Assembly: GCA_951406725.2 (NCBI GenBank) | Contig: OX597826.1 | Coordinates: forward strand, 1,860,001-1,924,000 | From: Octopus vulgaris | Lineage: Eukaryota | Direction of reading: 5' to 3' | Length of the DNA stretch: 64,000 nucleotides | In this document: positions 8,800 to 62,010 of the stretch, in pieces | How the letters are laid out: each line of letters starts with the position of its first letter | Position numbering within the stretch: the stretch's first letter is position 1 | Translations under genes and position numbers: made by a program | The notes under the pieces: generated by a model | Told to the model about the DNA's origin: nothing | What the model saw: only the letters and a program-made list of their open reading frames with translations | The model's database searches: none

Positions 8800-9010
8800 T
8801 TATTATTTCTTTATTGCCCACAAGGGGCTAACCATAGAGGAGACAAACAAGGACAGACAAAGGGATTAAGTCTACCCCAGTGCGTAACTGGTACTTATTT
8901 CATCGACTCCGAAAGGATGAAAGGCAAAGTCAACCTCGGCGGAATTTGAACTCAGAACGTAACGGCAGACGAAATACCGCTAAGCATTTCGCCCAGCGTG
9001 CTAACGTTTC
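8800..9010 (-). mobile_element. SINE family B with tail 1 (Tx1-like tail)
   Basis: Reverse complement of 17987-18220 and 61778-62010. Confidence 0.9.
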
Positions 9011-10072
9011 TTAGACTGGTATTGAGGAAGTAACAGGACAAAAATGGAGAGGAGCGACGGTTGTTGAGGCGGTAGAGTCGCGGCTTTGACATAGGGTGAT
9101 GTTGAGATCTTTAATGGTTGGTGTTGGCTCAGGATCTTTGTGGCTTGAATTACTATCTCCAATTTTGTTCCATTTGTTTTCTAATGTGATATATGGATTA
9201 AGTCTTGTATATTAATTATGAAAATGAAAATCATTTTCCCTAATAAAGTTATAATTAAAAAATTATTAGCCTTTTGCAAAAGTTTGCAAAATTTGGGTAT
9301 TTCAGCCAATCAAAAGCGAGTATTTTACACATCACCGTGAGAATTCTGTGAGCATTGTACGCAAAGGACACTGTTTCCATAGTAACCAAGAAGTGTAACC
9401 ATCACCTGTTCCGTAACTGTTTGCAAAATCCTGCTTTCATAGCAAACAAAGATATTGCGCATGCGCACAAAAAGTATAACCACCACGTGTTCCACAATTG
9501 TTTGCTTTCATGATCAGCTTTTAAATATCTAGTTTTCTCGCGTATTTTCTAATGTTTTCCACCGTTATTTCTAATGTCTTGACGTGTCGGTGCCCCCACC
9601 TTCTTAAGGATTTCAACATGCAGGGACTCAAACCGTAAAGATCCATTGGCTTGTACTTCCTAGAAAAGCTGGTCTGGGTAGCAGCAAAGAACTACGTCAT
9701 GGCAAGGTGCAAGGAAAGGACAGGAGACGGATCTTTTTTGTTTGGTGGCCACTTTTCAACTTCATTTGATTCGAAATGAAGTGCGATTGTAGATTGAAGT
9801 CGAGCTATGTATGCAAAGTAAAGTTTGCGTACGTACGATTTGAACTCAGAGTGTAGAGAACCGGAACAAATAGAGCAAGACATTTTCACTTAACCCTCTG
9901 ACGACTTTGCATATTAATTCGCCGTCTTTGTTTAGAATTTATATGCACGCTTTCGTTATGTACAAACACGTGAGTGCGCTTCGGGGTTTGTACACATGCG
10001 TACATCTGTACTACATGCGTGCGTTCCTCAGCGTGTATATATGTGTGTGTGAGAGAGAGAAAGAGAGAGTGA

Positions 10073-10813: not shown

Positions 10814-11191
10814 GTGGAAGCGCAATGGGCCGGTGGTTAGGGCAGCGAACTCGCGGTCGTAGGATCGTGGTTTCGATTCCCAGACCGGACGCTGTGAGTG
10901 CTTATTGAGCGAAAACACCTAAAGCTCCACGAGGCACCGGCAGGGGTTAGTGGAGAACCCTGCTGTACCCATTCACCACAACTTTCTCTCACTCTTCCTG
11001 TTTCTGTTGTACCTGTATTTCAAAGGGCCAGCCTTGTCACACTCTGTGTCACGCTGAATCTCCCCGAGAACTACGTTAAGGGTACATGTGTCTGTGGAGT
11101 GCTCAGCCACTTGCACGTTAATTTCACGAGCAGGCTGTTCCGTTGATCGGATCAACTGGAACCCTCGTCGTCGTAACCGACGGAGTGCCAC
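10814..11191 (+). mobile_element. tRNA-derived SINE family D with an RTE-derived tail
   Basis: A box (TGGGCCGGTGG) and B box (TTCGATTCC). Tail CCTCGTCGTCGTAACCGACGGAGTGCC. Related copies at 16905-17222 and 59335-59630. Confidence 0.85.
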
Positions 11192-12687: not shown

Positions 12688-13565
<878 letters not shown>

Positions 13566-13693
13566 ATATCTATCTATCTATCTATCCATCTATTGCTTAT
13601 GCATGTATGTATGTATGTATGTATGTATGTAGATTTGTATGTATGTATGTATGTATGTATGTATGTATGTATGTTTGTATGTATGTATGTATG

Positions 13694-16904: not shown

Positions 16905-17222
16905 AAGGGAGTGTGGGTTAGTGGTTAGGGGTATTCGGCTCCCGATCGTATAGTCGTGAGTTCGATTCCTGGTAGCACGTTGTGTCCTTGAGCAAGACAC
17001 TTTATTCCATGTTGCTGCAGTTCACTCAACTGGCAAAAATGAATTGTGTCCCGTAATTCAAAAGGGCCAGCCTTGTCACATTCTGTGTCACGCCGAATCT
17101 CCATGACAACTACGTTAAGGCTACACCTGTCTGTGAAATGCTCAGCCACTTGTACGTTAATTTCCACGAGCAGGTTGCTCTGTTCAGCTGGAGCAGTCGT
17201 CGTCGTAACCGACGGAGTGCCG
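16905..17222 (+). mobile_element. SINE family D variant
   Basis: tRNA head, TGTGTCCTTGAGCAAGACAC, and tail GTCGTCGTAACCGACGGAGTGCC. Confidence 0.85.
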
Positions 17223-17844: not shown

Positions 17845-18390
17845 TTCTGCCGAGGTCGACTTTGCCTTTCATCCTTTCGGAGTCGATAAATCAAGTACCA
17901 GTTGCCTACAGGGGATGGCTCTAATCGACTGGCCCCATTTCCCCAAAATTTCGGGCATTGTGCCTAGAGTAGAAAAGAATATTTTAAGGCGGCGAACTGG
18001 CAGAAACGTTAGCACGCCGGGCGAAATGCGTAGCCGTATTTCGTCTGCCGTTATGTTCTGAGTTCAAATTCCGCCGAGGTCGACTTTGCCTTTCGTCCTT
18101 TCGGGATCGATTAAATAAATACCAGTTACGCACTGGGGTCGAAATAATCGACTTAATCCATTTGTCTGTCCTTGTTTGTCCCCTCTGTGTTTAGCCCCTT
18201 ATGGGCAGTAAAGAAATAAGTATTTCGTCTGTCTTTATGTTCTGAGTTCAAATTCTGCTGAGGTCGTCTTTCCTTTTCCTCCTTTCGGGGTCATTAAATT
18301 AAATACCAGATGCGTACTGGGGTCAATCTAATCGAGTGGCTCCCTCCCCCAAAATTTCGGTCCTTGTGCCTAGAGTACAAAAAAAGAATA
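17845..18390 (+). mobile_element. tandem cluster of SINE family B monomers (tail2 - tail1 - tail2)
   Basis: Three copies of the core CCGAGGTCGACTTTGCCTTTCATCCTTTCGG. Full head GGCGGCGAACTGGCAGAAACGTTAGC at 17987. Confidence 0.9.
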
Positions 18391-25305: not shown

Positions 25306-25765
25306 CAAAATGGGACAAGAACGCAAAACATCCGGACAACTAGGTGATACAGAAAGGGACAACAAAACATCCAGATAGACGATACAAAGAAAACAAGGAC
25401 AGGTTTTCTTTCTTCAGTCAGTCACCAGATTATCCTCGCAATTTCGGCTGATTATTCTTCAGATTGCTTCAATCTGGCTAGCCTCAAGGGAAAACTAAGC
25501 TAAGAGCATTAGATTCCCTGGAAGAAAGCAGCGAATGTATACAAAAACAAGGACGGAAAAATCGGGCAATGTTACACAAATGTAAATACAATAAAAAATA
25601 CCATAAAAATAAACAATAGGTGTCTTTCGACTAAGGACGAATTGAATTAAGCTGGCGAGTGTGGAAATGAAGCCTTGCGGCAGAGATACAAGAGTTTCAC
25701 AAACACAGGGAAGAATATCGATGTTGCACGGACCACGATCAGACCAAGAGTATATATATCTATAT

Positions 25766-25806
25766 ACTAGCATTATGACCCGGCGTTGCCGGGTCATAGT
25801 GCTAGT
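25766..25806. mobile_element. Helitron 3' terminus forming a 41-bp palindrome
   Basis: ACTAGCATTATGACCCGGC-GTT-GCCGGGTCATAGTGCTAGT, homologous to 23477-23516. Confidence 0.75.
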
Positions 25807-26043
25807 TTGGTATAAATTTGTTAAATTAAAAATTTGGGGTAATAAAACATACAATGACATATTAAAAAGACGAATTAAAATTCCAGAGAAAAATACATAG
25901 AAGATAAATATACAAATTTACAAAAATACATAAAAGTTCATCTTTTATGCACCAATTAATATGCACTAATTAATATGAAACATATCATATATTTAAAATT
26001 GACACTCCCCTCGTCACGATGTTTTTTTACACACAACACATCG

Positions 26044-27686
26044 TTTCTTTATTACCCATAAAGGGCTACACAGAGGGGACAATACAAACATTGGGGATAT
26101 AAAATATCACAATTACATAAATATGGAAAATGGAATATGAAAATGATAAATGAAAAATGAAAGTGATGCTACCGGCCCCATCCGCTAGCATCACTTACCT
26201 GTCCTTCATACTTTATTCTGAATGTAATACACATTGTGCTCTATTTTCATCGCAAATCTCTTTTCCATTTCCGTTATTATCTCGTCATCTATTTCAAATC
26301 TAAACACTTTATAGTTTTTCTTTTTACATTTTTCCACGAATTCTTCTAAACGTTCTTCCGAGATTACAGCGTACCTATCACTGTCCTTGTCACACCAGTG
26401 ATAGTCTTTCAATATTTCTTTTACGTCTTTTTTCCTCGAAATACCTAGAAAATTGGGCCTAGGTTTTTTTTTTGCGGTATCTTGTCTGTTTGCTTCTTCT
26501 TTTGTTGTTTTCTTGTTGGTGGGGAGCGGGTGGGTTCACTGTCTGCAGGGGAAGGGTGGGTCTCAGAGGGTGCGGGTGGTGTTGGGGTGGATTGAGGTTC
26601 AGCACTATTTTTTTTCCCTTCTTCTCTTCTTCCTTCTTCTGCTTTCTTCCCATTCTTTTTGTACCTCCTCCTCTTCCGTTGTGACATTCTCCGTTGATTT
26701 CTGCTCTTCCTCGTTGGCCACTACCTCTCTTTGAGGTTCCGCATCAATTTCCTTTGATGGGGGAGGGCAGTTAGCTCTTATGTGACCTTTCAGGCCACAC
26801 TTGTAGCAGCGCGGAGCTCTGCCCTCCACCCACACTCTCATTATAACACTTCCAATTCTGATATTCTCACTCAATTGTTCCAATATTTCAGCCTCCGCTT
26901 GCACGTTTAGTTCCAAAACTGCACCCTTCCAGCCTCCTTCATCTTTCACTGTAGCATGGAGGATGTCAACTTCTTCCTCACATCCACTGATTACGGCTGC
27001 CACTATCCACTCTCCGTCAACATTAGGAGGTATCCCCTCCACCCTGATCCGAGTAGTTTTTCTACCCAGATATGAGGGCAGAAGGAACACCTTTTCTGTC
27101 TTCACCGTTCTCGCTGCCATTTTCCTCGCCACACTTTCATTCTTGAATTGGATCACCACGGTACCGAAATTTATGCCTCTTGCCAAGAATATTATGTCTT
27201 CTTCCGTTCTTTTTAATGCTTCTTCTATTATTTCCATACCGGCGACTTCTGTTTTCTTTTTTCCATTGGCATAAACCCGGTACGTGATGGTCCTTCGTTC
27301 ATGCCACTCTCTTCGTTTTGGTGGCGGTGACAACTCCACTTCACCGCCGACCTTTTTAATAAATGCCTGGTAGCTTGGCAACTTGGCCAAGTCTATTTCT
27401 CTTTACCCCGTTCTTGTCGCTCCTGCGTATGTGTTGCCTAATTGCTTGTCCATTTTCTTTATCGCCTTTTCAGGTTCTTCTTCAGAAGTCGATAAACCCG
27501 ACACCCTTTCGAACATACTTCGTCTGGCCATCTCTCCCTTAGGGAGGGGCAGCCCACTTCTTCCTTGTCTGTCTCAACACAGACAGACAAAAAAACAAAA
27601 AAACCGTGTAACAATAACATTTAATGATAAAAATTAACAATCAACAATTAAACAGCAACTCACAGGTTCAAATAAGAAGCACAATA
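26044..27686 (-). mobile_element. ORF1-only (gag-like) non-autonomous non-LTR retroelement
   Basis: Single disrupted ORF1 followed by a ~160-nt 3' UTR and the tail TGTCCCCTCTGTGTAGCCCTTTATGGGTAATAAAGAAA. Candidate TSD ACACACAACACAT(C/A)G at 26029-26043 and 27687-27701. Confidence 0.7.
26206..27531 (-). pseudogene. L1/Tx1-type ORF1 protein with a CCHC zinc knuckle (disrupted)
   Basis: ATG at 27531 is in frame with ORF 26605-27390, with one TAA at 27403-27405. RRM-like region (TRIRVEGIPPNV) and knuckle CYKCGLKGHIRANC. Two frameshifts at A-runs (~26610, ~26468) link it to the C-terminal ORF that ends at 26206. Confidence 0.8.
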
Positions 27687-28417
27687 ACACACAACACATA
27701 GTACACGGAAACAAATGCACAATTACATACCTGCTACATGCGAAAGACCAGACATTACGTACTCCCCAAAATTCTCATAGATACTGAATGCTACTTTATA
27801 AGCATATAATTCAATCCAGCAGCTATAGTAAATGGTATACGCACCGCTTCAACTGGACTAATTCACTTATGCACTCAATTAAATTTTTCATATTTTAATT
27901 TCTCCCATTCATGCAAAGCCACATATTCGAGTTCAAGTCTTTGGTACATTTTATACTAATTGCTATTTTTTCTTTTAACTGTTATATAACGATTTAATTA
28001 CCATTTTAATAAAATAAAATATATTTAATTACTACTTACTATATTTACTATATTTAATTCAATTGTTATTATTACTTCTAACTTTTATTGCAATTTTTAT
28101 TTCTAAATTTCTTATGGAACGTCGAGTGGATCTTATGCGTACAATATATTTTTATATGATGTTTATATATTTATATATTACTATATATTTCTAAACGTCG
28201 GGCTTTATGTCTGTTCTGTAGATATAAATGAATATATGAATATATGTATGTATTTGATTTTTCTGTGGATTTTGTAGTGCTCTTGTAGTTGCTGCTCGCA
28301 TTGCCCCCCCTCGGATTAAAAAGTGTATACAGCTCATTTGAGCACTACTATTCCAGTGTGTTATATATTTTGAGCGTTGTTGTCACTAACGATCTCAAGA
28401 TATAACTTTATATTTTG

Positions 28418-32420: not shown

Positions 32421-32844
32421 TGGAAGGAAATGGGGAGAGCAACAGGTTTTTATTGCATAAAACTACAACTGTTTCATCGCCGAAACATCGTGAAATTACT
32501 TTTATGTATTATTTCATATTTGATATATTATTGTTTCAGCAAGGTCTTGCTCGTAAAATGGCGATGAAACATTTGTAGTGTTATGCAATAAAAATTTGTT
32601 GCTCAACCCATTTTCTCTTATTCATAGTTTTGTATTTACGCTGCGGATATTCACGGATTTCCAGTTCTATATTCAGTGATATGATCGATCTCACTCTACA
32701 ATAACATTTGTTAGCCGATACCTGTAGCCGGCAAAATCTTATGTGGTCCCTTAAGTGTTATATGGACTGATGTACTAGACCTTTTCTAGGCGGTACCCTC
32801 ACATTGGTCGCTGTCCAATGACTGGAACATGTAACGTTATAAAA

Positions 32845-33374
32845 TAATCCTTTCTATTATAGGCACAAGGCCTGGCATTTTTGTGGGAAAGGGACAGCCG
32901 ATTACATCGACTCCAGTGTTAAACTGGTACTTATTTTATCAACCTCGAAAGGATAAAAGGTGACGTCGACCTCGGCGGTATTTGAACTCAGAACGTAAAG
33001 ACGAACGAATTGCCTCTAAGCATTTTGTTCGGCGCGGTAACGATTCCGCCAGCTTAGGGCACTTAACGCTATAAGATAATTCTTTCTACTATAAGCACAA
33101 GGCCTGAAATTTGTGAGGAGGGGTGGGGGTGGCAGTCGAATAGATCGACCCCAGTACGCAACTGGTACTTAATTTGTCCACCCCGAAAGGATAAAAGGTA
33201 AAGTCGACCTCGGCGGAATTTGAACTCAGAACATAAAGACAGACAAAATATCGCTATGCATTTCGCCCGGCGTGCTAACGATTCTGCCAGCTTGCCGCCT
33301 TTTAACGCTATAATAAAGCCTAAAAGAATAAAAGAATACAAGCGTTTTCATTAAGACAAGAGAGAGAGAGAGGT

Positions 33375-33427
<53 letters not shown>

Positions 33428-34180
33428 AGTAATTTTCAGTTATTAGGTTCAAATCTTGGCACAAGGCCAGCAATTTTGGGGGAGGGGGACTAATCGTTCC
33501 CCCAGTGCTCAACCGGTACTTATTTTATCTGAAAGGATGAAAGGCGCAGTCGACCCCAGCGGAATTTGAACTCTTTACTACCCACAAGGGCTAAACACAG
33601 AGAGGACAAACAAGGACAGACATACGGATTAAGTCGATTATATCGACCCCAGTGCGTAACTGGTACTTATTTAATCGACCCCCGAAAAAATGAAAGGCAA
33701 AGTCGACTTCGGCGGAATTTGAACTCAGAACGTAGCGGCACACGAAATACTGCTAAACATTTTGCCCAGCCTTGTTAACGATCCTTTTCTACTCTAGGCA
33801 CAAGGCCCGAAATTTTTGGGGACATACGGATTAATTCGATTAGATCGACTCCAGTACGCAACTGGTACCTAATTTATCAATCCCGAAAGGATGAAAGGCA
33901 AAGTCGACCTCGGTAGAATTTGAACTCAGAACGTAAAGACAGACGAAATACGTATTTCTTTACTACCCTAAAGACAGAGAGGACAAACAAAGACAGACAA
34001 ACGGATTAAGTCGATTATATCGACCCCAGTGCGTAACTGGTACTTAATTTATCGACCCCGAAAGGATGAAAGGCGGAGTCGACCTCGGCGGAATTTGAAC
34101 CCTGAACGTAAAGACAGGCGAAATACTGCTAAGCATTTTGGCCGGTGAACTTAACGATTCTGCCAGTTTCACCGCCTTTA
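32845..34180 (-). mobile_element. cluster of about six same-strand SINE family B monomers
   Basis: Repeated GAAAGGATGAAAGGCAAAGTCGACCTCGGCGGAATTTGAACTCAGAAC cores carrying tail 1 or tail 2. (GA)n at 33360-33426. Confidence 0.9.
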
Positions 34181-34848
34181 ACGCTGTCAGATAATAAAAG
34201 TATGAAAGAAGAACAAAAATACAAGCATGAAGGACAAGAAAGAAAGAAAGAAAGAGAAAGAGAAAGAGAGAGAGAGGGGGGAAGAAAGAAAGAGAGAGAG
34301 TTGTTATTACAGAGAAATTGCTGAATCTTCACGTAAGGTTAAGCTTCTTCCTCGCTTTTCTGCCGCCCACTTCAGGTTACTAAGTAAACATTTGGTGATA
34401 TAACCAAGTCCGTCATTGATTTATAAGTACGAGATTAAGGTAAACTATTATATATGAATGAACGTAGTAGTAGTGGTAGTAGTAGTAGTAGCAGTAGCTT
34501 TGGTGGTGGTGGTGGTGGTAGTAGTAGTAGTAGTAGTTAAGTAGTCTTGATCAGCTGACCGGAAGTGTTCTCTCATATATTTTTTTACATAGTCACGTTA
34601 TACGTGACAATCATTCTCGATGTAGAAGTGACCTCTGGGGACGAGAGAAAGCGAGAGAGACAGAGAGAGAGAGAGAGAGAGGGGGAAGAGAAAGAAGTTT
34701 TCTTTTCCACTCGCTTTCTGTACCTTTCTTTCTTTCTTCCTTCTTTCTTTCTTTCTTTCTTCCTTCTTTCTTTCTTTCTTTCTCTCTCTCCCTCTCATAC
34801 TCTATCTCACACAAGGAATATTTCTACATTCATGCATAAATAATTATA

Positions 34849-50571: not shown

Positions 50572-50619
<48 letters not shown>

Positions 50620-51440
50620 TATTACGTGAAGTCATTTACATATCTTGGAAATAAAGTGAATTTGAGCGCTTCCTTTGATGATGAAATCGTCCACCGTTTT
50701 GCAAAGACAACCAACACATTTGGCAAACTTTGTCATTGCCTATGGAATGAAAGAGGCATCAAACTTGGCACCAAAGTACAGGTTTATAAAGCAGCCATTC
50801 TTACTACCCTCTTGTATGGCTCAGAATCGTGGATTCCCTATAAACGACGCATAACTAACTAAACATCCTCCACAAAGACTGTCTGGGGACAATCTGCGGT
50901 TATTCTCTAAAAGATAAAGTTTTTAATGTCGACTTGTTTAGCAAGTGTAAGATTGGTGCAATTAAGAGCTTCCTTTTACAATCACAGTTGCGATGGGCTG
51001 GCCATGTCGTCGACGAAAGAATACCCAAAGTCTTCATGTACAGCCAGTTTGAGAGTGGACAGAGGAATGCTGGTCGACCATGGCTCAGATATAAGGACAA
51101 GCTGAAGAGTAACCTCTTAGAGATGACGATAGCTCACAACAAATTTGAGTGAACAGCCTTGGACCGAACAAAATGGAGATCGTTGTGTTAAAATGGTATT
51201 AAAAACATTGTAGCAACCAGCGTTAACAGGCTTCGGAGTGCAAGGCAAAGGCAAAAAGCGGCTGCAGATATACCACCTGCACTGACCTGTGTGTAACTCT
51301 CATACTTATAACATCTGTGGCCATCTTTGCAAATCGTTGGCAGGACTTAAATGTCACATTCGAAAGAAGTATTATGACTGACAAAGAAAGAGTACGTTGT
51401 CGGAGCCTCGTACGTCGTAACCGACGGGAGAGTCCATCAT
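50620..51440 (+). mobile_element. RTE-clade LINE, 5'-truncated
   Basis: FTYLG...FGKL..LWNERGIKLGTKVQVYKAAILTTLLYGSESW and QLRWAGHV..ERIPK...GRPWLRYKD motifs, a C-terminal C2H2-like finger (ICGHLCKSLAGLKCHIR), and tail CGTCGTAACCGACGGGAGAGTCCATCAT. Confidence 0.92.
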
Positions 51441-60887: not shown

Positions 60888-61777
60888 TTTTTTCGAGCAT
60901 CAACACACACGTACATACACACTCACGCAGAAACGCATACACATTGACACAGGTGTGTGTATGTGTACATGTATAAACCTATAGCCTCCCTATTTGGTTA
61001 AACTTTTTAAATTATGGCAAAGCCGCTCCAAGGGGACATGGAATTTTGCCAAGTGTACTGAATGAAAATTTTTCTCTTAATATATAATTTTCAAATAGAA
61101 GAAGTATAGACAGTCATTCACCCCAATGCTCGTTTTTAGATATGTTATATATTTGTACTTCGTTTGTTTACTTAGTACAAATAGAAAAGAAAATAGGATA
61201 TATATGATACATATAAGAACAAACTGAATTAAATACACAGATACATGCAGTTGCTAAATGAAAGAAGAGAGAAAACATCGATCTATATAGCACAAAAAAC
61301 AAAACAACGAAAACAGCAAGAATGACTCTTTTGTAGGTGTTTCTCTCTCTAAAGACGCGTGTTAGTCATTGTTTACCCGCAAGGGAGAAACAGCATGGTA
61401 GCCGCGTGTCACCTAGGCATGTGCCTCTTTCCTTGAGGAATTAATCTTAGAATGGGCAAGGAGGAACGTGACCTGTTTCTGCTTCACGAATGAGCTCGGG
61501 GTGGAGGTTTTCTTGTTGCCCTAAAATTACAGATGAAGGAAGTTCTAAATAATGTATGGACAACATTATTTTCTGTTAATCAGGAGAAGGCATATGGGAG
61601 TGGGCACAAAGGTATATGGGAAGGACGAAGCAAGAAAAGAAGCTGAGGTGATGCATCACTAACACACACATACACACACACGCATGCGCGAGCACACCTG
61701 CTCCTAAGCTGATGCTCCCGTGTATGGGACGAAGGAACAGGTAAGTCTCGGCGGAAAATATTGTAAATGAAATAAAA

Positions 61778-62010
61778 GGCGGCGAGATGGCAGAAACGTT
61801 GGCACGCCGGGCGAAATGCTTAGCGGTATTTCGTCTGCCGTTACGTTCTGAGTTCAAATTCCGCCGAGGTCGACTTTGCCTTTCATCCTTTCGGGGTCGA
61901 TAAATTAAGTACCAGTTACGCACTGGGGTCGATGTAATCGACTTAATCCCTTTGTCTGTCCTTGTTTGACCCCTCTGTGTTTGGCCCCTTCTGGGCCATA
62001 AAGAAATAAG
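61778..62010 (+). mobile_element. SINE family B, full-length, tail 1, with a TSD
   Basis: Runs from head GGCGGCGAGATGGCAGAAACG to tail CCCCTTCTGGGCCATAAAGAAATAAG. The flanking duplication (GG)AAAATATTGTAAATGAA lies at ~61753-61771 and ~62017-62035. Confidence 0.92.

What the first reader, a model, noticed from the sequence alone, without database searches (positions are those of the whole stretch)
26029..27701. Gag/ORF1-only 'half-LINE' that appears to be a complete transposition unit
Seen: a minus-strand ORF1 of about 440 codons once one stop and two A-run frameshifts are repaired (RRM-like region, CCHC knuckle CYKCGLKGHIRANC, charged linker, novel C-terminal domain). It is followed after only ~160 nt by a LINE-type 3' tail with AATAAA. 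There is no trace of ORF2. A 15-bp direct repeat with one mismatch (26029-26043 and 27687-27701) brackets the unit like a TSD. Known: ORF1-only non-autonomous elements exist (mammalian HAL1, Drosophila HeT-A) but are rare. Inference: this is a cephalopod family that supplies its own RNA chaperone and borrows RT/endonuclease from a Tx1-type LINE.
Basis: partly seen in the sequence, partly recalled or inferred. Interest (0 to 1): 0.82.

Follow-up and report, generated by a model that had tools for sequence, protein, structure and literature searches.

The report
Octopus half-LINE carrying only ORF1
This is a 1.65-kb octopus jumping element, present in several copies, that carries only the gene for a predicted RNA-binding packaging protein and likely borrows its copying enzyme from a full-length L1/Tx1-type element with the same 3' end, a design known from mammals and insects but not found in our searches for molluscs.

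Summary
Largely confirmed. Window 27686-26042 (minus, 1645 bp) holds a broken ORF1, a 164-nt 3' UTR and no ORF2 trace. The ORF1 core is predicted as two RRM folds plus one CCHC knuckle. Contigs of four public runs show a multi-copy family, roughly 10-15 copy-equivalents by depth. One copy about 83% identical bridges the ORF stop to the tail. Uninterrupted forms of the flanking high-copy repeat carry the AC-rich motif once, so it is a real target-site duplication, 13 bp exact rather than 15. The last ~47 nt match a 5'-truncated L1/Tx1-type LINE (ORF2 end) and several SINEs in the same window. Best reading: a HAL1-like, ORF1-only non-autonomous LINE of octopus, likely moved by L1/Tx1 ORF2. Not shown: that this ORF1 derives from that LINE, an intact selected ORF1 in the family, or different insertion sites per copy. 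The second frame break is shared by other copies, so the '440-codon repaired ORF' is unproven. ORF1-only LINEs are known (HAL1, HeT-A, Ag-Sponge); this is a new variant.

The parts
27687..27699 (-). Target-site duplication, upstream copy (13 bp exact, TG-rich on the element strand)
   Evidence: uninterrupted host-repeat contigs carry the motif once (tables 5 and 5c)
27532..27686 (-). 5' UTR, 155 nt; whether this is the family's true 5' end is not shown
   Evidence: a copy about 93% identical covers 27474-27655 (record 7); depth about 10 times single contigs (rough)
27403..27531 (-). ORF1 N-terminal 42 codons from the ATG, ended by a stop private to this copy
   Evidence: other copies read a sense codon at 27405 in 96-100% of the depth in all 4 runs (table 3); weak colinear match to P0048 (E 0.18)
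26815..27327 (-). ORF1 core: two predicted tandem RRM folds (about residues 26-112 and 112-196 of the 217-aa piece)
   Evidence: 367 homologues at E<=0.001
26764..26811 (-). Single CCHC zinc knuckle
   Evidence: Pfam PF00098, E 8e-4, just under the curated cut-off
26474..26763 (-). Acidic then basic linker, first A-run (26608-26615), then Pro/Thr-rich linker read in a shifted frame
   Evidence: The shifted frame matches P0001 at 64% over 39 aa, E 1.7e-5
26464..26473 (-). Second A-run; frame break between linker and C-terminal segment, shared by other copies
   Evidence: table 4 (3 nt shorter in 33-100% of depth by run) and table 8 (records 2 and 24 keep the offset)
26206..26463 (-). C-terminal coding segment of 85 codons plus stop, predicted small alpha/beta domain, family not placed
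   Evidence: Open in 27 of 100000 shuffles; 1 of 5 single-sequence models reached pLDDT 82; no clear fold match
26161..26196 (-). 15-bp hairpin at the start of the 3' UTR, shared with a much larger set of relatives
   Evidence: z -5.9, 0 of 200 shuffles; depth about 290-600 times single contigs (rough); majority letter at 26172 turns the one mismatch into a wobble pair (table 3)
26042..26087 (-). Terminal motif (small stem-loop then AATAAAGAAAC), no poly(A); shared with a LINE 3' end and SINEs
26029..26041 (-). Target-site duplication, downstream copy
25766..28400 (-). Host high-copy repeat split by the insertion; Helitron-like 3' end (hairpin then CTAG at 25770-25767); 5' end at 28400 is a guess
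   Evidence: Flank depth about 120-340 times single contigs (rough); joints across the insertion and 25782>28045; Helitron label is recalled, not tested
12822..13566 (+). Candidate partner type: 5'-truncated L1/Tx1-type LINE (ORF2 C-terminus, 470-nt 3' UTR, same terminal motif) inside an (ATCT)n microsatellite
   Evidence: 66% identity to P0155, an endonuclease-RT-zf-RVT protein; tail alignment score 46 against at most 33 in 2000 shuffles

Best explanation
It is one decayed copy of a multi-copy octopus element that encodes only an ORF1 with two predicted RRM folds and a CCHC knuckle, and it is likely a non-autonomous LINE copied into new sites by the ORF2 protein of an L1/Tx1-type LINE that would recognise their shared 3' end. 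Steps: (a) shown: ORF1, no ORF2, short 3' UTR, several copies, 13-bp duplication of host DNA; (b) shown: its last ~47 nt match the end of an L1/Tx1-type LINE and of tRNA-type SINEs in the same window; (c) inferred from LINE biology: the RNA is made from its own 5' end, ORF1p coats and chaperones it, and partner ORF2 nicks the target at a T/A step and reverse-transcribes from the tail, leaving the duplication; (d) inferred: the lineage arose by loss of ORF2 from an L1/Tx1-type element long ago and has since diversified, with relatives that keep the same tail but a different C-terminal segment; (e) this copy is dead: a private stop, and listed private changes are mostly amino-acid changing.
For: (4 of the 24 listed runs laid): every one of 30 bins covered in all 4 runs; near-identical multi-copy contigs (X4 records 16 and 22 at depth 286 and 469 against about 48 for single contigs; X10 records 9, 11, 14 at 31-72 against about 6); X1 record 1 (26114-26497, 61 other letters in 374) bridges stop and tail with 92 nt on the tail side; joints 26024>27708, 26027>27687, 26038>27700 and 26040>27708 show host repeats without the insert and with one motif copy, in all 4 runs; joints 26206>26501/26511 and 26182>26505 join the ORF1 linker to the tail in relatives; 5' UTR depth is close to C-terminal depth (about 10 against 10-15 single-contig units), unlike a mostly 5'-truncated LINE. 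Tail sharing. Partner: endonuclease, RVT_1, zf-RVT; LINE-1 ORF2p E 1e-50 against R2 1e-22. ORF1 type; RRM plus CCHC is type I ORF1p (PMC5203782, passages). An O. bimaculoides gene model (P0154) joins this LINE's ORF2 end to an ORF1 of this family, a hint of linkage. Precedent: PMC5786205, passages.
Against: No DNA was obtained in which an ORF1 of this family precedes an ORF2, so descent from the tail-sharing LINE is unproven. Only the last ~47 nt of the two 3' UTRs align, and the tail matches the SINEs at least as well as the LINE (nhmmer E 3e-5 against 3e-3). Only 1 of the 32 listed contig pieces bridges stop and tail by the tool's 31-letter rule. The joints in relatives have 'between: not known'. 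Depth is no true copy number. Flanks of other copies were not seen, and one contig (X9 record 29) shows the same 5' flank. The second frame break persists in other copies, so an intact ORF1 master is not shown. Loose ends at 26206 in all 4 runs show relatives with other sequence before the same UTR, which could include ORF2-bearing ones.
Confidence: 0.7

Rival explanations
1. One old insertion (or a one-off ORF2 deletion) that was then multiplied passively as cargo of the Helitron-like host repeat or by segmental duplication; the unit itself no longer retrotransposes.
For: It sits inside a high-copy repeat. X9 record 29 (27537-27716) crosses the 5' junction into the same flank. The second frame break is shared by several copies, as a single broken founder would give (table 4).
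Against: Copies 83-87% identical exist (records 1, 8, 17) while the 13-bp duplication in the window is still exact, which is hard to get from one founding insertion. Relatives with another C-terminal part share the tail (table 5). Record 29 may simply be the same locus in another animal.
Confidence: 0.13
2. An ORF1-only element whose helper is not the L1/Tx1-type LINE seen here: ORF1 and tail come from different LINE lineages (tail exchange, as in SINEs), or another clade ends in the same motif.
For: Only about 47 nt are shared; the SINE copies match the tail better than the LINE does; no ORF1-ORF2 linkage was seen (searches gave no usable locus).
Against: Type I ORF1 architecture suits the L1 group (PMC5203782, passages); gene model P0154 places the two together; a TSD of 13 bp with a T/A nick suits an L1-type endonuclease (recalled).
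Confidence: 0.1
3. Processed retrocopies of a host gene domesticated from ORF1 (ZCCHC3-like RNA-binding protein), not a selfish element.
For: Atlas look-alikes include clusters with ZCCHC3 RNA-binding domains (score 0.91); intronless ORF with TSD.
Against: LINE/SINE-type tail, no poly(A), hundreds of diverse homologues with many truncated gene models, no single conserved orthologue in the quick tree; no ZCCHC3 family among the 25 of 26 Pfam families shown for 30 aligned members.
Confidence: 0.04
4. A gag-only LTR-type element or retroviral remnant.
For: CCHC knuckle; short direct repeats at both ends.
Against: The repeats are 13-bp target DNA; the fold is RRM-RRM, not capsid; LINE-type tail.
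Confidence: 0.02

Closest known systems
HAL1 (half-L1) of mammals
   Same: Non-autonomous L1-group derivative that encodes only ORF1p (PMC5753468, passages); 5' part plus LINE 3' end.
   Different: Mammalian L1 ORF1p is type II, Transposase_22 (PMC5203782); this one is type I, two RRM folds plus CCHC. No poly(A) tail here; a structured tail shared with SINEs; mollusc host.
HeT-A and other ORF1-only Drosophila telomeric elements (Jockey clade)
   Same: ORF1/gag-only, CCHC-bearing, depends on a partner's ORF2; repeated ORF2 loss and small ORF1-only radiations (PMC13534243, passages). An internal frameshift in HeT-A gag is named in a reference title seen.
   Different: Those are telomere-targeted, in head-to-tail arrays, with long UTRs (recalled); this copy is interstitial with a TSD and a 164-nt 3' UTR, and its likely partner is of the L1 group.
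Ag-Sponge (CR1-derived, mosquito)
   Same: Listed with HAL1 and HeT-A as an ORF1-present bipartite non-autonomous LINE (PMC5786205, passages).
   Different: CR1 clade; the original paper was not read.
Tx1-clade LINEs (Tx1, Kibi, Koshi, crocodilian Tx1)
   Same: Many insert into other transposons or microsatellites (PMC4494074, passages); here the element sits in a TG-rich motif of another repeat and the LINE remnant sits in (ATCT)n. L1-Tx1 is active in Octopus vulgaris: 13 recent families, 421 insertions (PMC13282606, Table 1).
   Different: Those carry ORF2; target preference and Tx1 membership were not established here.

Membership tests
ORF1-present bipartite non-autonomous LINE (HAL1/HeT-A/Ag-Sponge design) | Encodes an ORF1-type protein | tested here: met
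   Two predicted RRM folds plus CCHC
ORF1-present bipartite non-autonomous LINE (HAL1/HeT-A/Ag-Sponge design) | No ORF2 between ORF1 and the 3' end | tested here: met
   (best E 0.44); record 1 shows the same junction in a diverged copy
ORF1-present bipartite non-autonomous LINE (HAL1/HeT-A/Ag-Sponge design) | 3' end shared with an autonomous LINE | tested here: met
   Last ~47 nt match the ORF2-bearing LINE end at 13517-13565; 0 of 2000 shuffles reach the score
ORF1-present bipartite non-autonomous LINE (HAL1/HeT-A/Ag-Sponge design) | 5' part (ORF1) descends from the same autonomous LINE | tested here: inconclusive
   No locus with both ORFs fetched; hint only from gene model P0154
ORF1-present bipartite non-autonomous LINE (HAL1/HeT-A/Ag-Sponge design) | Amplified as a unit by retrotransposition: many copies, each with its own target duplication | tested here: inconclusive
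   Multi-copy and one real TSD shown; flanks of other copies not seen
ORF1-present bipartite non-autonomous LINE (HAL1/HeT-A/Ag-Sponge design) | Family ORF1 intact and under purifying selection | not testable with these tools
   No assembled genome; second frame break shared by other copies
HAL1 proper (mammalian) | ORF1p of mammalian L1 type (Transposase_22: coiled coil, one RRM, CTD) | tested here: not met
   Two RRM folds plus knuckle; no such Pfam family hit the window pieces
Tx1 clade | RT phylogeny groups the partner ORF2 with Tx1 | not tested
   Only L1-group placement shown: domains and closest solved structure LINE-1 ORF2p; no Tx1 reference set was on hand
Tx1 clade | Target-sequence preference (common, not universal) | tested here: inconclusive
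   One site in a TG-rich motif of another repeat; LINE remnant in (ATCT)n
HeT-A-type telomeric elements | Head-to-tail arrays at chromosome ends | tested here: not met
   Single interstitial copy with TSD inside another repeat

The most novel reading that the evidence does not exclude
Octopods host an old, large radiation of ORF1-only retroelements: many families 25-70% identical in protein, some with hundreds of copies, all ending in the tail that their L1/Tx1 helper and the commonest SINEs use. One ORF2 would then serve three classes of rider, and ORF1 would be kept by selection in elements that cannot copy themselves. In this subfamily the conserved break at the second A-run would be a programmed -1 frameshift giving ORF1p with and without its C-terminal domain.
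Probability: 0.2. Interest if true: 0.72.

Novelty: new variant of a known kind. Interest (0 to 1): 0.5.

Why it matters
It extends the 'half-LINE' design, so far listed for mammalian L1, insect Jockey and mosquito CR1 lineages, to a type I ORF1 of the L1/Tx1 group in a mollusc. ORF1-only elements are the natural test of what ORF1p does for its own RNA, since they keep it while giving up ORF2. Here a LINE, a half-LINE and a SINE with one tail lie within 50 kb, which makes tail recognition and competition for ORF2 testable. Practically, many 'uncharacterized CCHC-type' octopus gene models are probably pieces of this family and not host genes.

Tried and rejected
No whole genome is held, so copies, flanks and dN/dS could not be read directly. 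No second copy of the ORF in the window. DNA around relatives: the metagenome scan gave 5 loci that match only the knuckle; 5 viral scans and 2 prokaryote-genome scans gave nothing. Search for long fused ORF1-ORF2 proteins of 848-2420 aa: none at E<=0.001, weak evidence. Pfam on 38 of the 150 listed homologues, chosen mostly for length: none showed RT or endonuclease among the families displayed. No RNA holder listed on record; run X9 is only guessed to be RNA, so expression is untested. C-terminal segment: a profile from 5 family C-terminal domains scored it no better than shuffles (246 of 1992 scored shuffles as high); Atlas best 0.85, a lead at most; fold searches best Z 5.2, rmsd 4.0, 79 aligned, and no E<=0.001; no match to P0168. 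Frameshift stimulator: the hairpin after the second A-run folds no better than shuffles (z -0.2 and -0.5) and starts without a spacer, so programmed frameshifting stays a weak idea. The terminal stem-loop alone is not significant in the element or in 4 other copies (z -1.9 to +0.3). Rfam: 1 chance-level hit; no tRNA genes. Selection: of 21 listed coding-region differences typed from the 40 rows shown (510 more hidden), 3 are synonymous; this reflects decay of single copies and does not test the family. The tree is the quick version only, 59 rows. Earlier findings of the scan: nothing. Literature searches for an ORF1-only LINE in cephalopods or from Tx1 found none; Repbase, Dfam and the Zenodo repeat library of PMC13282606 could not be seen and may hold it.

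Full report
What the sequence shows. On the minus strand the unit runs from 27686 to 26042 (1645 bp): 155 nt of 5' UTR, 1326 nt from ATG to stop, 164 nt of 3' UTR. The coding part is broken by a stop at 27405-27403 and by frame changes at two A-runs. The core (27402-26608) and the last segment (26535-26209) are in one frame; only the Pro/Thr-rich linker between them is shifted, and that shifted frame is the one matched by the closest homologue P0001 (64% over 39 aa). Two full ORF2 proteins find nothing in the unit (best E 0.44) but do find a remnant at 12.8-13.1 kb. A 13-bp exact direct repeat brackets the unit; such a match arose in 25 of 3000 random window pairs. There is no poly(A).

The protein. 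Pfam sees only a CCHC knuckle, just under its cut-off. A model from a 30-sequence alignment is confident (pLDDT 93.6) and resembles tandem-RRM proteins (La RRM Z 8.5, rmsd 2.6, 80 aligned, though ACT-type folds score alike for the second half). RRM plus CCHC is the type I ORF1p of LINEs (PMC5203782, passages). The exhaustive search found 367 homologues at E<=0.001. Of 28 looked up, 16 carry a species name: 15 Octopus and 1 Argonauta. The nearest is Octopus sinensis P0001 at 69%. The window is therefore very likely octopus DNA (inference). The C-terminal 85 codons are open in only 27 of 100000 shuffles, but neither a family profile, the Atlas nor three fold searches placed them.

Other copies. 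With no assembly on hand, contigs of 4 of 24 listed public runs were laid on 25600-28200 at 80% likeness. All 30 bins are covered in all 4 runs. Dividing summed depth by the depth of single contigs gives about 10-15 units over the C-terminal segment, 18-25 over the core and about 10 over the 5' UTR in three runs; the tool warns that depth is no copy number, so these are rough. Some contigs differ from the window at only 2-4 letters yet have 5-11 times single depth (records 9, 11, 14, 16, 22), as collapsed young copies would. Others are 83-87% identical. X1 record 1 (26114-26497) carries the C-terminal segment, the stop and 92 nt of tail in one piece: a diverged copy with the same junction and no ORF2. 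It is the only one of 32 listed pieces that bridges by the 31-letter rule; 13682 pieces were not shown. The stop at 27405 is private to the window copy: 96-100% of the depth reads a sense codon in each run.

The flanking repeat and the TSD. Both flanks are themselves high-copy (about 120-340 units). All 4 runs hold contigs that jump from about 26024-26040 to 27687-27708, with a single copy of the AC-rich motif between (tables 5 and 5c). These are uninterrupted members of the host repeat, so the motif is duplicated target DNA and not part of the element. The host ends in a hairpin followed by CTAG at 25770-25767, which I read as Helitron-like from memory. Whether other copies of the element sit in other places was not seen, and one contig crosses the 5' junction into the same flank.

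The tail and the likely helper. The last ~47 nt match a stretch at 13517-13565 (score 46, at most 33 in 2000 shuffles) and at least three SINE ends in the window with E<0.004. The 13-kb stretch is the 3' end of a LINE: its reading frame is 66% identical to the end of P0155, whose domains are endonuclease, RVT_1 and zf-RVT; a relative, P0158, is closest to LINE-1 ORF2p among solved structures. This places the helper in the L1 group; Tx1 specifically was not tested. L1-Tx1 is recently active in O. vulgaris (PMC13282606, parts 1-2 of 3 and its one supplement searched). SINEs and their helper LINEs share short 3' tails, and Tx1 families often target transposons or microsatellites (PMC4494074, passages). 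The rest of the two 3' UTRs does not align, so this particular LINE family need not be the parent. A gene model in O. bimaculoides (P0154) joins that ORF2 end to an ORF1 of this family, which is a hint only.

A wider family. The 3' UTR opens with a 15-bp hairpin (z -5.9) whose depth is roughly 290-600 units. The knuckle and linker bins are also far deeper than the rest, though low-complexity matches may inflate the linker. Contigs in all 4 runs join the linker (about 26501-26511) to the tail (26182-26206) across unknown sequence, and loose ends begin at 26206 in all 4. The simplest reading is a larger set of ORF1-plus-tail relatives with different C-terminal parts; read by eye the loose ends do not resemble the helper's ORF2 end, but ORF2-bearing relatives are not excluded.

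An unexplained point. The second A-run is 3 nt shorter in 33%, 57%, 100% and 43% of the depth in the four runs, which keeps the frame offset. Two records that span linker to C-terminal segment (X9 record 24, X1 record 2) also keep it. Forty-two indel rows were hidden, so in-frame copies may exist. Either a broken master was amplified, or the break is read by a -1 frameshift: the shorter run gives a known slippery heptamer in the right phase (recalled), but that phase has a 1 in 3 chance and no stimulator was supported.

Comparison with what is known. ORF1-present non-autonomous LINEs are listed as HeT-A (Jockey), HAL1 (L1) and Ag-Sponge (CR1), thought to work by multimerising with the helper's proteins (PMC5786205, passages; PMC5753468, passages). 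About 40% of 396 Drosophila telomeric families are ORF1-only (PMC13534243, passages). The HAL1 paper itself was not held. PMC9115989 and PMC4758252 (passages) mention no such octopus element, and seven searches found none; Repbase, Dfam and the Zenodo library were out of reach. The element works like HAL1 but is not HAL1: its ORF1 is of another type.

Verdict. A real ORF1-only, LINE-tailed, multi-copy octopus element with a true TSD; probability about 0.7 that it is a retrotransposing non-autonomous family served by an L1/Tx1-type ORF2. New variant of a known kind; interest 0.5.

Noticed in passing
window 12822-13566 (+): 5'-truncated L1/Tx1-type LINE end flanked on both sides by (ATCT)n, with an 89-bp tandem duplication in its 3' UTR; may point to a microsatellite-targeting family.
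   Followed up: partly
window 17990-18220, 8800-9011, 61776-62010, 32830-34300: Abundant SINE with a tRNA-like head (by eye) whose 3' end matches the LINE tail; several copies are in tandem or nested. Its published name was not checked.
   Followed up: partly
window 25766-25806: Near-palindromic 40-mer ending in CTAG, with more than 100 contigs leaving it on each side in each of three runs (table 7): a very high-copy terminus used with many different bodies.
   Followed up: no
window 26161-26196: 15-bp 3' UTR hairpin; high-copy relatives carry a wobble pair where this copy has a mismatch.
   Followed up: partly
proteins P0005, P0010, P0012, P0023, P0070, P0081, P0134: Longer ORF1 homologues share a C-terminal domain with an LK..FP.DVG-like motif that Pfam does not know.
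   Followed up: partly
proteins P0002, P0018, P0166-P0168 and the window core: Several homologues end just after the basic patch that follows the knuckle, as the window's core frame does; A-rich slippage hot spot or a family feature. The P0018 cluster lies on contigs of 1.85-1.93 kb, the size of an ORF1-only unit.
   Followed up: no
proteins P0035, P0048: O. bimaculoides gene models fuse this ORF1 to LDL-receptor repeats or to a C2H2 zinc-finger array; probably annotation artefacts from insertions beside genes.
   Followed up: no
window 10855-11179 and 17051-17164 (-): Stretches that match the middle part of gene model P0035 at 58-83%, likely another repeat.
   Followed up: no
window 50600-50862 (+): Open frame ending in an RT-like C-terminal peptide, by eye an RTE-type LINE fragment.
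   Followed up: no
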